Positions 40,001 through 46,000 of a DNA stretch of 64,000 nucleotides are shown here, piece by piece; position 1 is the stretch's first letter; every line of letters starts with the position of its first letter. The position numbers were made by a program. The stretch lies in the NCBI RefSeq assembly GCF_050920415.1, contig NZ_CP169310.1; one strand, given 5' to 3'. The DNA comes from Escherichia coli. GTDB lineage: Bacteria > Pseudomonadota > Gammaproteobacteria > Enterobacterales > Enterobacteriaceae.

Positions 40001-43000
40001 AAATAAAACCGCCGAAGCCCGGCGTAAGCCGGTACTGATTGACAGATTTAACCTTACCCACCCCATCCTGTTAAGCCATACCCACTTTCAGCCATGACAG
40101 AGCTTCTGTGCGCGGTCGGAGTGGTCCCGACAAGGGTTTCCCCGAAGTCGGGGCGTATCTCCGCGTAAGCGGGCCGTCAGGGCCGCTTACGAGCGTGTAT
40201 GACAGACATTAGCGGGCATGAAAAAATGGCAACTCTCAAAGACAGTGGCGTTGACACAGCGGCAGCAGCAACTACCTCTCTAATCCTGGTCAGGCAGGTA
40301 GTAGGCGTTGGCTTCATGCCTGCCGTTGGTGGTTGTTCTGGTAACGGTGATTTGCCCTGCCTGTTCCAGCGTCTGAATTGCCCGCTTAACACTCTGTCGA
40401 CTAATACCGGACAGAATAACCAGTTCAGTGATTGAGATTTGATTTTTTCCGGCAGCAATGAAGCTGGCGATTACACACAGGATTGAACTTGTCGTTCTCA
40501 ATGTCAGCGACCCCTTATCACTGCCAGACCATGTTTTTTGCTTGCGGCTGTCTGGATGTTGTCCGAAGGTCATCGAATAGTAGTTCAAAGAAAAAAAGAC
40601 ATCGAGAAACACGGGAACTCTTTATCTGTCCAGTTTTAACCATGAGCATGCGCCTGAATGCCCCATGTATCGTCAGTTTTCCGGAAATGAAGAGGAAACC
40701 TCCTCCGGAACAGGCCGGCATCCCGTGCTCCCGTATAAATAACAGAAACTTTTTACCACCTGATGACCGTAATTCCGTTATCAGACTGCAGGCTCGCTCT
40801 GCTTACCATGATGGTGAGCGCTCCTCCGTTCGCAAGAAACGTCCGCGCCTTTCCCGTTTACTCCAGTCTCTTATTGAAGATGCCGGGCTGAATAAACTGG
40901 ATTCCCTGACCAATCCCCGTATCCGGGCTAATTATCGTGAGTGTCCTGATGCCATACGGCAGGTTACACTGCAGCAGGAGTATATTCGGGGAAGAGCCTT
41001 ATCTGAAATTATCCAGCCTGAACTGAAGAACACGGTGGTGCGGAGTCCGGAGAGTAACGGAACAACAGAAAGCTTAGTGAAAACGATAAAGCGTGACTAC
41101 ATCAGTATCATGCCCAAACCTGACGGGTTAACCGCAGCAAAGAACCTTGCAGGGGCGTTCGGGAATGATAACGAATGGCATCCTCATAGTGTGATGGGTT
41201 ATCGCTCGCCACGGGAATATCTGAGGCAGCGGACCAGTAATGAATTAAGTGATAACAGGTGCCTGGAAATACAGGGGAAAATCCACAGAAAAACATTTAT
41301 TCTGTTGTCTTGTTATGTTTTAAAAACGCATGTTACCATCTGTGTTGCCCGGAAGCTGTTTCTGAATTATTGTCTGGTGATTTAATATGAAGCGTTTTTT
41401 TGTAAAAAACAAATATAAAGAAATTGATGATGAGTTTTCTGATGGAGAGCTCATTTTTGGTATTGCCATTATCATAAAAGAAATACAGCTCCATCTGATT
41501 AAGCGCAGAAACTATCAGTATATCATTCAGGCTGATTTAACAAATGATGTATGGAGTTACGCGGATACCCGATTTGCCGTAAAAAACACAAATAACAGGT
41601 CCGTGGGGTTTTTAAATTACATATCAATGCACGACAGATATAATGTCTCTGTATTGTTTATTTCAAACACATTCAAAAACAGAGTTAATGTATTTAAAAA
41701 AACAAGCAAGTGTGGACTTGAATATCAGTTGCTTGTACTGAGAAAAAAAGTGCATTTTTTTATTGATGGTCTTGATTTATCCTCTGTTGCCAGTAAAACC
41801 GATGGACACGGAAGAAGTGTTACAGCAAGTGAGTTGCGATGGTTATACAGACACCGGTACATGCCAGATGTACGAAATAATCTTATCTTCTGGAAGAATT
41901 ACAAAAAACTATCTCAGGAGGATGTCTTTTCGTTGTCCCTGTGGCAGACATATTGTCCGAAAAAAATTTATCAATAGGGGCATCGACAGGGGTTTTTAAT
42001 AAACGGAAACCCGGAAAAGAAAATCATGAACTGCTCCTCTGTCGATGACGTTCAGTAGTGCTAAGTATCAAAAGAGAACGGGATAAAAAACACTCCTGAC
42101 ATGGTTTACCAGATTTCATCTTTACCACGACAGATACAGGTTGTCAGCTTATCTTCAATACCGGTGTTACTAAAAAACGATAGTGACCATAGATTACGTT
42201 TTTCGGGTAAACTCCGGTTACCGTCCTGAATCACCAGCACTGACAATGGTGTGAGAGCGGGTGTTTGTCACTATTATTTATGAGTCAGTAAGTCAGAAAA
42301 AACGTTGGCAGTGGGGACGTTAAGAAGAAATAACTTCGCAGATGTTTGTATAACGTGAAAATGTTGCACGCAACGTATTAAATCTGCCGTACTTCGCCTC
42401 AATGTTCAGTGCGGCAGATATACAAATGAATTCAGCTTTAAGGTTTCAGCTCACAAATCTTAGGGTTTAATATTGTATCTTGTTGAATAATGTTGTATTA
42501 AATGAATATAAATACTAAGGACTCATTATTCTGACTGAATCATTCCTTACCCCCTCTGTATGCTCTCAGAGGGCTTTTTTTATTTCCGGAATAAATAATA
42601 AAATAAAGATGCGATTCCGGCACCACCATTTACATCATTACCCCTGACATACAGTACCAGAATCGCATTAATGCATGTTACAAGTTTTGTTTTTTCATGT
42701 CCAGAATAATGGGGGGAAGCTTCTGTTGCGAAATAATATGCAAATCATGTCTTCTGGTGTTTGTTTTTTAACTTATTGTCTTACTGGTGCTTTGCTTATA
42801 GTGACTGATAACTCTTCGGTTTGTTATGAGTATAAAAAACCCCTGGTAACACAGGGGCAAGAGAACAAATGAATGCTCAGTGTATGTTGCACTTTAAACT
42901 AATCGAACTATAGAGGAGGTTGTTACATTTCCACTTATAAATCACCCACTCCTTTTTTGCAATAGATTAATATTAATTGTGAAAACTTTGTGATATTGAT

Positions 43001-46000
43001 CAGGGTATTTTTAGTTATTTATTGACCATGTACTCTGCCATAGTTTCTGCGTATCAACTGATAAGAGATAAGTTTTTTGTGTTTTTATTAAAAATGTGAT
43101 CCATCTTGCAAAAAAATAATCGTATAAACATGATGGGGTTAATGGGTAAATGTATATGTCTTTAAAGTATTGTGCAGATGGTTATTCTTGTTTCTGTTTG
43201 ATCGAATGGTTGTTTTGTCTGGTGTGAGTTTGTTGATGCGTATTAATTATACGCCAGGAACTTAAGTTAAGTATTGAAATCAGTGGACTGTACGGTTAAA
43301 TTTTTGTTTCAGCGTAGCTGATTCATCGTTATTCGAATATGACCAACGCACCTGTAATTGTTGTTTCTCTTGGAGCCCCCCACTTTTTGTGGGGATTTTT
43401 TTATTCCGTGTGTCGTTAAAAGGATACGCCCGGAAAACGTAATTGTTCCACATAAGAATAATTAATCTGAGCAAGTTATTTCATCCTGTCTTGTACAGAA
43501 CGTTCCACCACATATTGCGATTTTTATTCTCACGTAAAATATATTCTGCTGGTTTCAGTAATTCGGGAGATTTATGAGGCCTTTTACTGTTGTACAGTAC
43601 CGGGGGCGTATTTTCATGGAAGGAAATCACTCAATAACCGATCTCCTTCACGGTAATACGCATGAACAACAGAGAAAAAACAAAGATAGCTGATGCCCTG
43701 AGACAAACATATCCCCTGACAGAATTACTGCATGTTCTGGGCCTTGCCCGTAGCAGTTATTTTTATCACCGGGCTGCACTGAAAGCCGGTGATAAATACG
43801 CCACGATACGTACGATGCTGACAGATATCTTTAACAGTAATTACCAGTGTTATGGCTATCGTCGCCTGCATGCGATGCTCAGGCATGAGGGGGTTCGGCT
43901 ATCAGAAAAGGTTGTACGCAGACTTATGGTGGAGGAACAGCTTGTCGTCAGCCGTAACCGTCGTCGCCGCTACAGCTCATATTGCGGAGAAATCGGACCG
44001 GCTCCGGATAACCTTATCGCCAGAGATTTTAAGGCGGAGCAACCTAATCAGAAATGGCTGACAGATATCACGGATTTCCAGCTCCCTGCAGGTAAAGTCT
44101 GGCTATCACCGCTCGTGGACTGCTTCGATGGAAAAGTTGTGAGCTGGTCTCTCAGTACACGTCCCGACGCTGAACTGGTCAACACCATGCTGGATAATGC
44201 GGTCGAAACGTTAAATGCTGGCGAACGACCGGTGATACACAGTGACAGAGGTGGGCATTATCGCTGGCCAGGCTGGCTGGAAAGAGTGAATGCAGCAGGT
44301 CTTATTCGCTCAATGTCCCGTAAAGGATGTTCACCTGATAATGCCGCATGCGAAGGCTTTTTTGGCAGACTGAAAACGGAAATGTATTATGGGCGTAAAT
44401 GGTCAGACATCACGCCAGAAAAGTTCATGCAGCAAGTGGATGCTTACATCAGATGGTATAACGAGCGGCGTATAAAATTATCGCTGGGTGCCGTCAGTCC
44501 CAAAACGTACCGCCAACAATGCGGACTGGAATGATAAAGCAGTCCAAGAAATCGTCCGCATCCCCGTTTCTGTGCGCGGTCGGAGTGGTCCCGACGAGGG
44601 TTTACCCGAAGTCGGGGCGTATCTCCGCGTTAGCGGGCCGTGAGGGCCGCTTACGAGCGTGTACTGAGAACTTCCAGCAAGGATACAACCCACGCCGTTA
44701 CTGGTCGCGGAAAAATCTAGGTTTCCGGCTGGAACCCCTTGATCTGAGCTCTCAGTAAATATCAATACGGTTCTGGCGAGCCGCTTACGTTCTTTGAACG
44801 CAGCGGCTATCTCACGGGTGGTCATCCCTTTGGCATACAACGAGAGGAGCTGGTTATCCATCCCGGTAATACGGGTCTGATTTTTCTTTACCAGTTGTGG
44901 TTCGAAGGTACCGTCACGATCGCGCGGAGTACGCAGTTCCAGTGGACCGTCGCCTGTGATAACGGTCTTTGTGGAATAACCGTTGCGGGAGTTAGCTCCT
45001 GGTCTGGACTGATTTTTCTCATACCCAAGATGGTGTGTCATCTCTGCATTGAGAGCGGCTTCAACGCTGAGCTTTTTTAGCAGCCGATCAAACTGACTGA
45101 GGTCTTCAGGGGTTTTGAGGTTTTTGGCCAGTTCGTTAGCCAGAGCCTGTAACTGTTTTTCGTCCATAAATTAACCTTCATTTGATGCTGGATTGAACAT
45201 ATCAAAATCAGGCAATTACACAAATCTATGTACAGGCTCCACCAAGGGAATATCGACGTCAGCCAAGCTGAAACTATGTGATTGCCGTCAACAGTTACTG
45301 TTCAGTATTCTCCGTCCATCAATGGATTTAGCCGAATATAGTGATATATTATCTAAATTATAATAACCTTTATATTTCTGTTTTAAAAAGTTTATAAGCT
45401 CCATCTTATTTCCTACAAGATATTCACCAAAATTTGGATCAAAGAATAAAGAATGCCGACCATTTTTTATAAATGCTGTAGTATGTGACATTGTACCATT
45501 TGAAAGAGATAAATTAATAATATAAGAATCATCCTTTATATTATAGAGTTCAACAGGATTTACACCCCCTTTTATTTTTTTTAGGTGTATCTTTCCGTTT
45601 TTTATTAAGTATGGGTCTTTAATGGTTCCGCTTTCATATGCAAGTAACATTCCTCTGTATCTTGAGGAAAATGCATATGTCTTGCTAAAAAAAATGAAAT
45701 CACACTTTATGTCGTTTAATTTGTTATATATATAATCAATACACATAAAAAAACATAATCCATTATATATGCTTCTGTCTGTATGTTGAGACTTTATGAA
45801 TTCAGTTTGAGAAAACTTAAATATATTTTCCATATTTATCTGTATGTTTTCCATGTTTATTTCTGAACTTTAGGGTAAGATTATAACTTAATCTGACATA
45901 GGTTTTTATGATATATATCATTGAAATTGTAATTTCATATATATATACATGAGAGTGAGTGGTACTGTAAGTGACCTGAATACTTCAGGGCTTCACTGCG

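What the first reader, a model, noticed from the sequence alone, without database searches (positions are those of the whole stretch)
41978..43661. 1.7 kb AT-rich region almost devoid of ORFs, with terminator hairpins and a possible small hydrophobic toxin-like peptide
No ORF over 65 codons is present. A plus-strand hairpin with T-run (ccctctg...cagaggg + ttttttt, about 42540-42570) and a minus-strand hairpin with T-run (about 42830-42860) are visible. A 39-44 codon ORF (about 42738-42872) encodes a Cys-containing transmembrane helix followed by a charged tail (MSSGVCFLTYCLTGALLIVTDNSSVCYEYKK), and the minus-strand terminator overlaps its 3' end. This layout is reminiscent of type I toxin/antisense-RNA pairs, but the region could equally be decayed DNA or hold regulatory RNAs.
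Basis: inference. Interest (0 to 1): 0.35.

Follow-up and report, generated by a model that had tools for sequence, protein, structure and literature searches.

The report
Gene-free plasmid spacer with small-RNA-like units
This stretch is a patchwork of non-coding plasmid DNA. Its core is a diverged copy of the gene-free segment of a very common small cryptic E. coli plasmid and holds four short promoter-to-terminator units that look like small RNA genes, while the proposed toxin peptide is a chance reading frame.

Summary
Window 41978-43661 is AT-rich, has no ORF over 65 codons, and both hairpins with T-runs are real. Two more structures were missed: a third terminator at 43378-43394 and a long hairpin at 42609-42668.

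The type I toxin reading does not hold. The peptide ORF is frameshifted and interrupted by stops even in relatives about 90% identical. It lies in the least conserved part of the region. No Rfam or Pfam family matches.

The region is a mosaic of three parts:
- 41978-42265 is the tail of the neighbouring 196-aa ORF module.
- 42266-43420 is 63-79% identical to the unannotated gene-free segment of Col156 (ColE2-like, MOBQ42) cryptic plasmids.
- 43504-43661 is insertion-sequence scraps.

Conservation against Col156 is concentrated in five short units, here called A-E. Each has a -10-like box, a 40-75 nt body and a terminator. A, C, D and E share a U-rich stretch, a CCCC hairpin and a poly-U 3' end. 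B is a 17-bp hairpin whose G.U pairs form only on the minus strand. Unit E is decayed in the window.

Best reading: a relic cluster of uncharacterised small-RNA genes. Their function is unknown, and there is no sign of ongoing selection inside the large plasmids. No transcript evidence exists. Interest is modest.

The parts
41978..42265 (.). Non-coding tail of the 196-aa ORF module. It is not part of the Col156-like segment.
   Evidence: It travels with the ORF at 41387-41977 in L003, and in L007/L008, where it lies upstream of a plasmid T6SS. Indels of 2, 4, 6 and 19 nt between relatives rule out coding.
42266..43420 (.). Diverged copy of the gene-free segment of Col156 (ColE2-like, MOBQ42) cryptic plasmids.
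   Evidence: blastn to L010 3473-4215 (69%) and 4428-4602 (77%). The Col156 Rep protein is PF03090 + PF08708. No other Col156 DNA is present in the window.
42290..42470 (-). Unit E, decayed in the window.
   Evidence: In Col156, pHum4b and the 7.4-kb plasmids a minus-strand terminator CCCCC-N9-GGGGG + T6 sits at the position of window ~42296-42325. The window lineage has lost 5 nt of one arm and 18 nt around the candidate -10.
42483..42512 (+). Candidate promoter of unit A (TTGAAT, 18 nt, TATAAA).
   Evidence: The TATAAA box is invariant in five lineages while its flanks vary. It was not called by the consensus scan, so it rests on reading of the sequence.
42518..42581 (+). Unit A, a predicted ~64-nt RNA ending in the terminator 42552-42573 + T7.
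   Evidence: Terminator found. The stem shows the path C-G -> U.G -> U-A among metagenomic variants. Fold -15.3 kcal/mol, z -2.0.
42596..42668 (-). Unit B, a predicted ~73-nt RNA. It is a single long hairpin (arms 42668-42653 and 42624-42609) followed by a U-rich tail.
   Evidence: -28.8 kcal/mol on the minus strand against -14.7 on the plus strand, and the same asymmetry in three other lineages. 24 pairs with 91% of cells paired, 47 G.U cells, and one compensatory pair.
42675..42703 (-). Candidate promoter of unit B (TGGACA, 17 nt, TAACAT).
   Evidence: Called independently by the scan in the window and at the homologous place in Col156 (L010 3924-3896). The -10 box ends 7 nt before the hairpin.
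42738..42872 (+).
   Evidence: Frameshifts and stops in L003, L006a and L010. 36-54% identity to Col156. In the 7.4-kb plasmids, cargo genes are inserted in this same spacer.
42832..42899 (-). Unit C, a predicted ~68-nt RNA with terminator 42858-42839. Its candidate -10 box TATAGT lies at 42912-42907.
   Evidence: This is the most conserved island, 87% over 42844-42929. The homology retained in the 7.4-kb plasmids runs exactly from the terminator to the -10 box, 42831-42912. The promoter TCAACA-17-TATACT is called at the homologous place in L011. See also the alignment.
42936..43273 (.). Spacer with no recognisable feature.
   Evidence: 36-48% identity to Col156, essentially unalignable. No promoter or terminator is called there.
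43274..43302 (+). Candidate promoter of unit D (TTGAAA, 17 nt, TAAATT).
   Evidence: The Col156 and 7.4-kb lineages keep TTGAAT and TAATTA/TAAATT at the same spacing.
43310..43402 (+). Unit D, a predicted ~93-nt RNA with terminator 43378-43394 + T7.
   Evidence: The body is conserved at 93% over 43344-43370. The 26-aa ORF inside it has no ATG in Col156.
43504..43661 (.). Insertion-sequence scraps next to the truncated IS3 orfB at 43662-44534.
   Evidence: Window 43504-43601 matches an 'integrase core domain' remnant. Window 43606-43661 matches DNA annotated as 'IS66 family transposase' in several chromosomes. See also the annotation.

Best explanation
The region is non-coding mosaic DNA on a large IncF virulence plasmid.

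Its core, 42266-43420, descends from the same ancestor as the gene-free segment that fills the cargo slot of Col156 (ColE2-like) cryptic plasmids. That segment is built from five short transcription-unit-like cassettes. Four of them are intact in the window:
- A, plus strand, about 64 nt
- B, minus strand, about 73 nt
- C, minus strand, about 68 nt
- D, plus strand, about 93 nt

Shown by the data: the homology, the conserved terminators, the strand-specific hairpin, the similarity among the units, and the lack of any conserved ORF.

Inferred: each cassette is transcribed from its own sigma-70 promoter into a small RNA.
- A, C, D and E end in a U-rich stretch, a G+C hairpin and a poly-U tail. 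That is the layout that binds Hfq in enterobacterial base-pairing RNAs, so they would act in trans through their conserved 5' bodies.
- B would be a single-hairpin RNA of the RNA-OUT or CopA style, or simply a strong terminator.

In the large plasmids the segment behaves as a relic.
For: Homology and distribution
- The Col156-type segment is in 322 of 5426 complete E. coli genomes, always on plasmids, and almost never annotated.

No protein coding
- Six-frame Pfam scan found nothing.
- No ORF of 12 aa or more is kept across lineages.
- There is no similarity to a ColE9 colicin operon.

Conservation pattern
- Against Col156, units A-D are 78.8% identical and the spacers 54.8% (p = 8e-15). The conserved islands are mapped.
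- The 7.4-kb derivatives keep units E, A, B, C and D while swapping the DNA between them. The C block ends exactly at its -10 box.

Terminators and promoters
- Terminators are enriched in three lineages: 6 against 1.6 expected, 5 against 0.8, and 7 against 3.4.
- Promoter calls recur at homologous places in independent lineages.

Structure and unit similarity
- For hairpin B, the minus strand is favoured in energy and in G.U pairs, and there is one compensatory pair.
- Terminator A shows the path C-G -> U.G -> U-A.
- The units resemble one another: C-E z 9.8, A-C z 5.9-6.9, A-D 16/18 nt (alignment).
Against: - No transcript data were available, so every transcription start is a prediction.
- Promoter-like sites are not enriched in the region (4 against 9.7 in shuffles). 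The promoter argument therefore rests only on position and conservation.
- Covariation is thin because the lineages are few and close. Counts for hairpin B do not exceed the shuffle controls, and each consensus fold has only one compensatory pair.
- Within the window's own lineage the units are not better conserved than the spacers (95.9 vs 92.6%, p = 0.07; 94.2 vs 93.7%, p = 0.79).
- L003 lacks 17-19 nt of hairpin B and all of D.
- An IS1 insertion in the Col156 segment is tolerated.
- No target was found. The A-B loop complementarity is at chance level.
Confidence: 0.5

Rival explanations
1. Inert relic. The stretch is decaying junk left by recombination between plasmids. The hairpins are leftover terminators of genes that are gone, and nothing in it is expressed or selected today.
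For: - Mosaic breakpoints and IS scraps on both sides.
- Unit E is decayed in the window.
- Units are no better conserved than spacers within the lineage.
- L003 has deletions in B and has lost D.
- An IS1 insertion is tolerated in a Col156 plasmid.
Against: - At depth, conservation is strongly concentrated in the units (p = 8e-15).
- The conserved bodies of C and D lie outside the hairpins.
- The 5.1-kb plasmid keeps 1.1 kb of this DNA almost unchanged in about 300 genomes.
- No trace of a former gene was found.
Confidence: 0.2
2. Transcriptional insulator. The segment is an array of terminators on both strands. In Col156 plasmids it would stop transcription from the mobilisation genes running into the RNA-controlled rep gene, and the reverse. 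The hairpins would work only as terminators.
For: - There are five terminators in 1.1 kb, on both strands, between the mob and rep modules.
- In the 7.4-kb plasmids hairpin B lies about 70 nt after the arsR stop codon on the same strand, so it could terminate that gene.
- Terminator E sits just upstream of the promoter region of the 69-aa gene.
Against: - It does not explain the conserved, non-hairpin bodies of C and D, or the conserved -10 boxes placed 40-75 nt upstream of each terminator.
- One or two terminators would be enough for insulation.
Confidence: 0.15
3. Single-strand DNA signals. Hairpin B, and perhaps others, would be a single-strand initiation (ssi) site used to prime lagging-strand synthesis, or complementary-strand synthesis after mobilisation. 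ColE2 plasmids are reported to carry such sites (Nomura et al. 1991, cited in PMC6856555).
For: - The hairpin is strand-specific and very stable, with a conserved loop.
- G.T pairs are also tolerated in single-stranded DNA.
- The host plasmids are mobilisable and need priming in the recipient (PMC6856555).
Against: - A conserved promoter-like site ends 7 nt before the hairpin in two lineages.
- Partial copies that keep B intact persist on large plasmids that have their own replication systems.
- No DnaA box or other known ssi motif was recognised by eye. That comparison relied on memory and was not a formal test.
Confidence: 0.1
4. Type I toxin-antitoxin. The 44-codon ORF would encode a membrane toxin, and the minus-strand RNA overlapping its 3' end would be the antitoxin.
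For: - The ORF is hydrophobic and Cys-rich.
- Predicted RNA C overlaps its last ~40 nt in antisense.
Against: - The ORF is broken in every relative examined, including those ~90% identical.
- It lies in the least conserved spacer.
- It has no ribosome-binding site.
- There is no Rfam hit, although sok is found elsewhere in the window.
- The 7.4-kb plasmids have unrelated cargo at this spot.
Confidence: 0.03

Closest known systems
Gene-free segment of Col156 / MOBQ42 ColE2-like cryptic plasmids (e.g. pJJ1886_2 NC_022649.1, pEC931_5 NZ_CP049125.1 positions 3474-4600)
   Same: Homologous DNA at 63-79% identity, with the same order and orientation of units E, A, B, C and D and the same terminator stems.
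   Different: - In the window it is detached from the ColE2-type rep, cer-like site and mob genes.
- Unit E is decayed, and the middle spacer is unrelated.
- The segment itself has no described function in the papers searched.
Hfq-dependent base-pairing small RNAs of enterobacteria (e.g. RybB, OmrA/OmrB, MicF)
   Same: - Size of 60-95 nt, with an own promoter.
- A conserved 5' body.
- A 3' end made of a U-rich stretch, a G+C hairpin and 6-8 U.
- Occurrence as diverged paralogous copies.
   Different: - No sequence or covariance-model match to any Rfam family.
- Plasmid-borne, and clustered at five units per 1.1 kb on both strands.
- Transcription, Hfq binding and targets are all untested.
Single-hairpin antisense RNAs (IS10 RNA-OUT, R1 CopA, ColE2 RNAI)
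   Same: Unit B is a ~70-nt RNA that would consist of one long imperfect stem with G.U pairs and a conserved loop, beginning right at the predicted start site.
   Different: - No overlapping sense transcript or gene is known.
- It lies more than 1 kb from rep in Col156, so it is not the ColE2 copy-control RNAI.
- It may be only a terminator.
Type I toxin-antitoxin loci (hok/sok, fst/RNAII of pAD1 par, ibs/sib)
   Same: A short hydrophobic ORF with a convergent minus-strand terminator over its 3' end, on a plasmid.
   Different: The ORF is not conserved, has no ribosome-binding site and matches no family. A genuine sok is present elsewhere in the window.

Membership tests
Type I toxin-antitoxin system | A small hydrophobic toxin ORF that is maintained in related sequences | tested here: not met
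   ORF 42675/42738-42872 has frameshifts and 1, 3 and 5 stops in L003, L006a and L010 respectively.
Type I toxin-antitoxin system | A translatable toxin mRNA with a start codon and ribosome-binding site | tested here: not met
   No GGAG-like sequence lies within 15 nt upstream of the ATG at 42738 or 42729 (sequence).
Type I toxin-antitoxin system | An antisense RNA complementary to the toxin mRNA | tested here: inconclusive
   Predicted RNA C (42899-42832, -) overlaps the last ~40 nt of the ORF. However, C is conserved where the ORF is not.
Type I toxin-antitoxin system | A match to a described toxin or antitoxin family | tested here: not met
   No Rfam match at E<=10 and no Pfam match in six frames. 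The positive control sok was found at 24250-24426.
Hfq-dependent base-pairing sRNA | An intrinsic terminator with a 3' poly-U tail of about 6 or more | tested here: met
   A has T7, C has T6 and D has T7 in the window. The terminators are conserved in Col156 and the 7.4-kb plasmids.
Hfq-dependent base-pairing sRNA | A U-rich stretch directly upstream of the terminator hairpin | tested here: met
   C has UUUGUU(UUCCUUAC), D has UUGUUGUUUCUCUU, E has UUAUUUCUCCUUAC and A has UCAUUCCUUA.
Hfq-dependent base-pairing sRNA | An own promoter and a discrete transcript | tested here: inconclusive
   Conserved -10 boxes sit at the right distance and are called in at least one lineage per unit for B, C and D. 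Promoter-like sites are not enriched, and no expression data exist.
Hfq-dependent base-pairing sRNA | Binding to Hfq and pairing with target mRNAs | not testable with these tools
   This needs Hfq co-immunoprecipitation or RIL-seq. No target was found on the plasmid.
Col156 (ColE2-like, MOBQ42) plasmid | Sequence homology to the plasmid's gene-free segment | tested here: met
   Window 42266-43002 and 43241-43419 match L010 3473-4215 and 4428-4602.
Col156 (ColE2-like, MOBQ42) plasmid | A ColE2-type Rep (PF03090 + PF08708), a cer-like site and a MOBQ4 relaxase in linkage | tested here: not met
   No other part of L010 matches anywhere in the 64-kb window. The window holds the segment only, not the replicon.
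Single-strand initiation (ssi) / primosome assembly site | A strand-specific stable hairpin | tested here: met
   Unit B folds at -28.8 against -14.7 kcal/mol, and similarly in three other lineages.
Single-strand initiation (ssi) / primosome assembly site | Priming of complementary-strand synthesis on single-stranded DNA | not testable with these tools
   This needs an M13 delta-ori or in vitro priming assay.

The most novel reading that the evidence does not exclude
The only 'cargo' of the commonest cryptic small plasmid of E. coli would be a cluster of five related small RNA genes that act on host or co-resident plasmid transcripts. This plasmid is the Col156 5.1-kb type, present in about 6% of complete genomes. 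Small RNAs would then be what the plasmid carries in place of the colicin operon of its relatives. Copies such as the one in this window would show that the cluster is exchanged with large virulence plasmids.
Probability: 0.25. Interest if true: 0.65.

Novelty: new member of a known kind. Interest (0 to 1): 0.35.

Why it matters
For this window the practical result is negative. There is no toxin gene here, and the stretch can be annotated as a non-coding relic flanked by IS debris.

The by-product is more interesting. The same DNA makes up about a fifth of a 5.1-kb plasmid carried by roughly one in seventeen completely sequenced E. coli strains. That plasmid is called 'cryptic', and its gene-free segment has no annotation and no function described in the papers searched.

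If the five cassettes are real small RNAs, two things would follow:
- They would be new RNA families.
- They would offer a concrete reason why such a small plasmid keeps so much non-coding DNA.

Deleting the segment from a Col156 plasmid would test this directly.

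Tried and rejected
- Toxin peptide: rejected on conservation.
- Remnant of a protein gene: a six-frame Pfam scan gave only one sub-threshold hit (8xMP, 15.5 bits against a cut-off of 30).
- Remnant of the colicin operon that related MOBQ42 plasmids carry in this slot: blastn and tblastx against ColE9-J gave nothing.
- Known RNA family: Rfam at E<=1 and E<=10 on the window and on Col156 plasmids gave nothing relevant.
- Iterons or other direct repeats, as expected for a replication origin: none found. The Col156 Rep is ColE2-type, and the origin of such plasmids lies downstream of rep (PMC6856555).
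- Pairing between RNA A and the loop of RNA B, which looked attractive by eye: not better than shuffled loops in any of six lineages, z -0.06 to -0.56.
- Targets on the Col156 plasmid: an RNAduplex scan returned only each unit's own antisense strand, the opposite strand of related units, and weaker unexamined hits.
- Wider phylogenetic reach:
  - A terminator pattern scan of 100,044 species genomes found only an Escherichia contig and two tiny contigs that are Col156 fragments.
  - A metagenome scan gave 64 loci but only 17 distinct B variants, all from the same few lineages.
- A covariance model of the shared 3' module: not built. The alignment would amount to a generic terminator model.
- Literature on Col156, pIGJC156, ColE2-like cryptic plasmids and pMUT2: nothing on the gene-free segment.

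Full report
**What is there.** The window is part of a ~225-kb IncF plasmid and is 100% identical to pCFSAN004180G (NZ_CP012500.1). That plasmid comes from an E. coli strain isolated from lettuce. The flagged stretch lies between a 196-aa hypothetical ORF (41387-41977) and a truncated IS3 orfB (43662-44534).

- The longest ORFs are 65 and 64 aa.
- GC is 0.32-0.41, against about 0.5 in the flanks.
- The plus-strand hairpin at 42552-42573 with T7 and the minus-strand hairpin at 42858-42839 with a T-run are both found by the scan.
- The scan finds six terminator-like sites where 1.6 are expected.

One is a third terminator (+, 43378-43394). The other is a long inverted repeat at 42609-42624 / 42653-42668. 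None of the 44 E. coli records that share this DNA has a feature annotated over it.

**The region is a mosaic.** Local and database BLAST define three blocks.
- *41978-42265* travels with the 196-aa ORF. In two other plasmids (L007, L008) this block lies directly upstream of a plasmid-borne type VI secretion cluster. Indels of 2, 4, 6 and 19 nt between relatives show that it is non-coding.
- *42266-43420* is homologous to part of the ~1.7-kb gene-free stretch of small Col156 plasmids of 5.1-5.2 kb. The alignable parts are 69-77% identical, and the overall figure is 63%. The match is to pEC931_5 positions 3473-4602. It runs in the same direction as, and upstream of, the rep gene.
- *43504-43661* is made of IS fragments.

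The Rep protein of these plasmids carries PF03090 and PF08708. That marks them as ColE2-like, the MOBQ42 group of Garcillan-Barcia and colleagues. Members of that group usually carry a colicin operon between the mob and rep modules (PMC6856555). The gene-free segment occupies that slot in the cryptic plasmids. It shows no similarity to the ColE9-J colicin operon by blastn or tblastx. No other Col156 DNA is present in the window.

**Distribution.**
- The window-type sequence is in 40 of 5426 complete E. coli genomes.
- The Col156-type segment is in 322, always on plasmids. 296 records are at least 99% identical to pEC931_5.
- A pattern scan of one genome per species found it only in an Escherichia contig and in two tiny contigs that are Col156 fragments.
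- A metagenome scan returned 64 loci, all belonging to the same few lineages.

**No protein coding, and no toxin.** A six-frame Pfam scan of the whole region gave nothing above threshold. Every ORF of at least 12 codons in 42250-43440 was followed through alignments with two ~90%-identical relatives (L003, L006a) and with Col156. None is maintained.

- It is frameshifted with 1 and 3 stops in the close relatives, and has 5 stops in Col156.
- It sits in the stretch with the lowest identity to Col156, 36-54%.
- No ribosome-binding site precedes either ATG.
- In the 7.4-kb Col156 derivatives this same spacer holds an inserted arsR-oxidoreductase cargo.
- Rfam finds nothing in the region even at E<=10. 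It does find FinP, the traJ leader and a genuine sok antitoxin elsewhere in the window.

The type I toxin reading is therefore rejected.

**What is conserved.** Identity to Col156 is concentrated in short islands. Each island coincides with a terminator plus the 40-75 nt upstream of it. I call these units E, A, B, C and D, in left-to-right order.

| Unit | Strand | Window coordinates | Features |
|---|---|---|---|
| A | + | ~42518-42581 | TATAAA box at 42507-42512, invariant in five lineages; terminator 42552-42573 |
| B | - | 42668 to ~42596 | TGGACA-17-TAACAT at 42703-42675, called in both the window and Col156; long hairpin starting 7 nt after the -10 box |
| C | - | ~42899-42832 | -10 box TATAGT/TATACT at 42912-42907, called in the 7.4-kb lineage; nearly invariant 36-nt 5' body; terminator |
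| D | + | ~43310-43402 | TTGAAA-17-TAAATT at 43274-43302; conserved body; terminator |
| E | - | 42290-42470 | Good terminator in Col156, pHum4b and the 7.4-kb plasmids; in the window lineage 5 nt of one arm and 18 nt around the likely -10 box are lost |

Terminator-like sites are enriched in all three lineages scanned: 6 against 1.6 expected, 5 against 0.8, and 7 against 3.4. The 7.4-kb plasmids keep the units but exchange the DNA between them. Their retained C block runs from the terminator exactly to the -10 box. Against Col156, units A-D are 78.8% identical and the spacers 54.8% (Fisher p = 8e-15).

**Structure.** Hairpin B folds at -28.8 kcal/mol (z -5.8) on the minus strand and -14.7 on the plus strand. 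Three other lineages show the same asymmetry. Across 11 distinct sequences, 91% of cells in its 24 pairs are paired. 47 of those cells are G.U pairs, which would be C.A mismatches on the other strand. One pair changes A-U to G-C.

Among metagenomic variants, the stem of terminator A shows the path C-G, then U.G, then U-A.

This covariation evidence is honest but thin. The counts for B do not exceed the shuffle controls, and the consensus folds of C and D have one compensatory pair each. Too few divergent lineages exist for a stronger test.

**The units are related to each other.** Local alignments scored against shuffles gave the following:
- C-E: z 9.8 over 46 nt
- A-C: z 5.9-6.9
- A (7.4-kb lineage) against C (window): z 6.1
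- A (window) against D (7.4-kb lineage): 16 of 18 nt identical, z 5.5

A, C, D and E share the same 3' layout: a U-rich stretch of the type UUUCUCCUUAC, a CCCC...GGGG hairpin, and 6-8 U. From general knowledge of enterobacterial sRNAs, this is the layout of the Hfq-binding 3' module. That is a resemblance, not a test.

**Interpretation.** The best-supported reading is that the Col156 gene-free segment is a cluster of small-RNA genes that arose by duplication. The window would then hold a diverged, partly decayed copy.

Several points count against over-reading this:
- No transcription data were available.
- Promoter-like sites are not enriched in the region (4 against 9.7 expected).
- Within the window's own lineage the units are not significantly better conserved than the spacers (p = 0.07 and 0.79).
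- L003 has lost part of B and all of D.
- An IS1 insertion in the Col156 segment is tolerated.

On the large plasmids the segment therefore looks dispensable.

The rival readings are an inert relic, a bidirectional terminator array insulating rep from mob transcription, and single-strand initiation signals, especially hairpin B. They are not excluded and are scored in the Rival explanations section. An apparent complementarity between A and the B loop turned out to be at chance level. No target was found on the plasmid.

**Comparison with known systems and novelty.**
- The region is not a member of any type I toxin-antitoxin family, because defining features were tested and not met.
- It is homologous to the Col156 gene-free segment but is not a Col156 replicon.
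- Its units work like Hfq-type sRNAs on paper but match no Rfam family.
- The papers searched describe Col156 and ColE2-like cryptic plasmids only by their rep, mob, cer and colicin genes. They say nothing about this segment.

If the units are real RNAs they are new members of a known kind. The window copy itself is of low interest. The open question it points to is why a 5-kb plasmid found in about 6% of E. coli genomes keeps about 1.1 kb of structured non-coding DNA. That question is moderately interesting and easy to test.

Noticed in passing
window 24250-24426 (-), and 15966-16075: A genuine sok antitoxin RNA (Rfam RF01794, 88.9 bits), plus FinP and the traJ 5' UTR. The reference record also annotates hok/mok at about window 22759-22975. 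The window therefore does contain a real type I system, but not in the flagged region.
   Followed up: partly
window 41387-41977 (+): A 196-aa hypothetical ORF with no Pfam match. In plasmids L007 and L008 the same module lies directly upstream of a plasmid-borne type VI secretion cluster (tssB, tssC and so on). In L003 it follows a 'putative adhesin' gene.
   Followed up: partly
L011 2947-5113; also L017-L019 and L021: The 7.4-kb Col156 derivatives carry an arsR-family regulator and an FAD-dependent oxidoreductase inserted exactly between units B and C. Hairpin B then lies about 70 nt after the arsR stop codon on the same strand.
   Followed up: partly
window 42193-42207 and 43429-43443: A 15-nt inverted repeat (14 of 15 complementary; ATTACGTTTTTCGGG / CCCGGAAAACGTAAT) brackets the Col156-like segment, 1221 nt apart. 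No target-site duplication is evident. It could be chance or the ends of a small mobile unit.
   Followed up: no
L006 8173-8543 and L014 4001-4242: Second, truncated copies of the segment at 80-83% identity. They hold the A terminator, an intact hairpin B and a broken C terminator. They abut the 3' end of a LysR-type regulator gene next to the 3-hydroxybenzoate/gentisate (mhb) operon. In L014 they also lie just after a microcin B17 operon.
   Followed up: partly
L010 ~4975-5010: A cer-like Xer site (GGGGCGTACAA-CGGGAG-TTATGGTAAAT) in the Col156 plasmid, read by eye. It lies outside the part shared with the window.
   Followed up: no
window 45288-45854 (-): An AT-rich (28% GC) ORF annotated in the reference record as a YopT-type cysteine protease domain protein. 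It is flanked by transposase fragments and a truncated umuC.
   Followed up: no
L011 3474-3642 (-): A sub-threshold Rfam match to Vibrio antisense RNA V_AS7 (52.7 bits, gathering score 90, E 8e-8), at the start of the oxidoreductase gene of the 7.4-kb plasmids.
   Followed up: no
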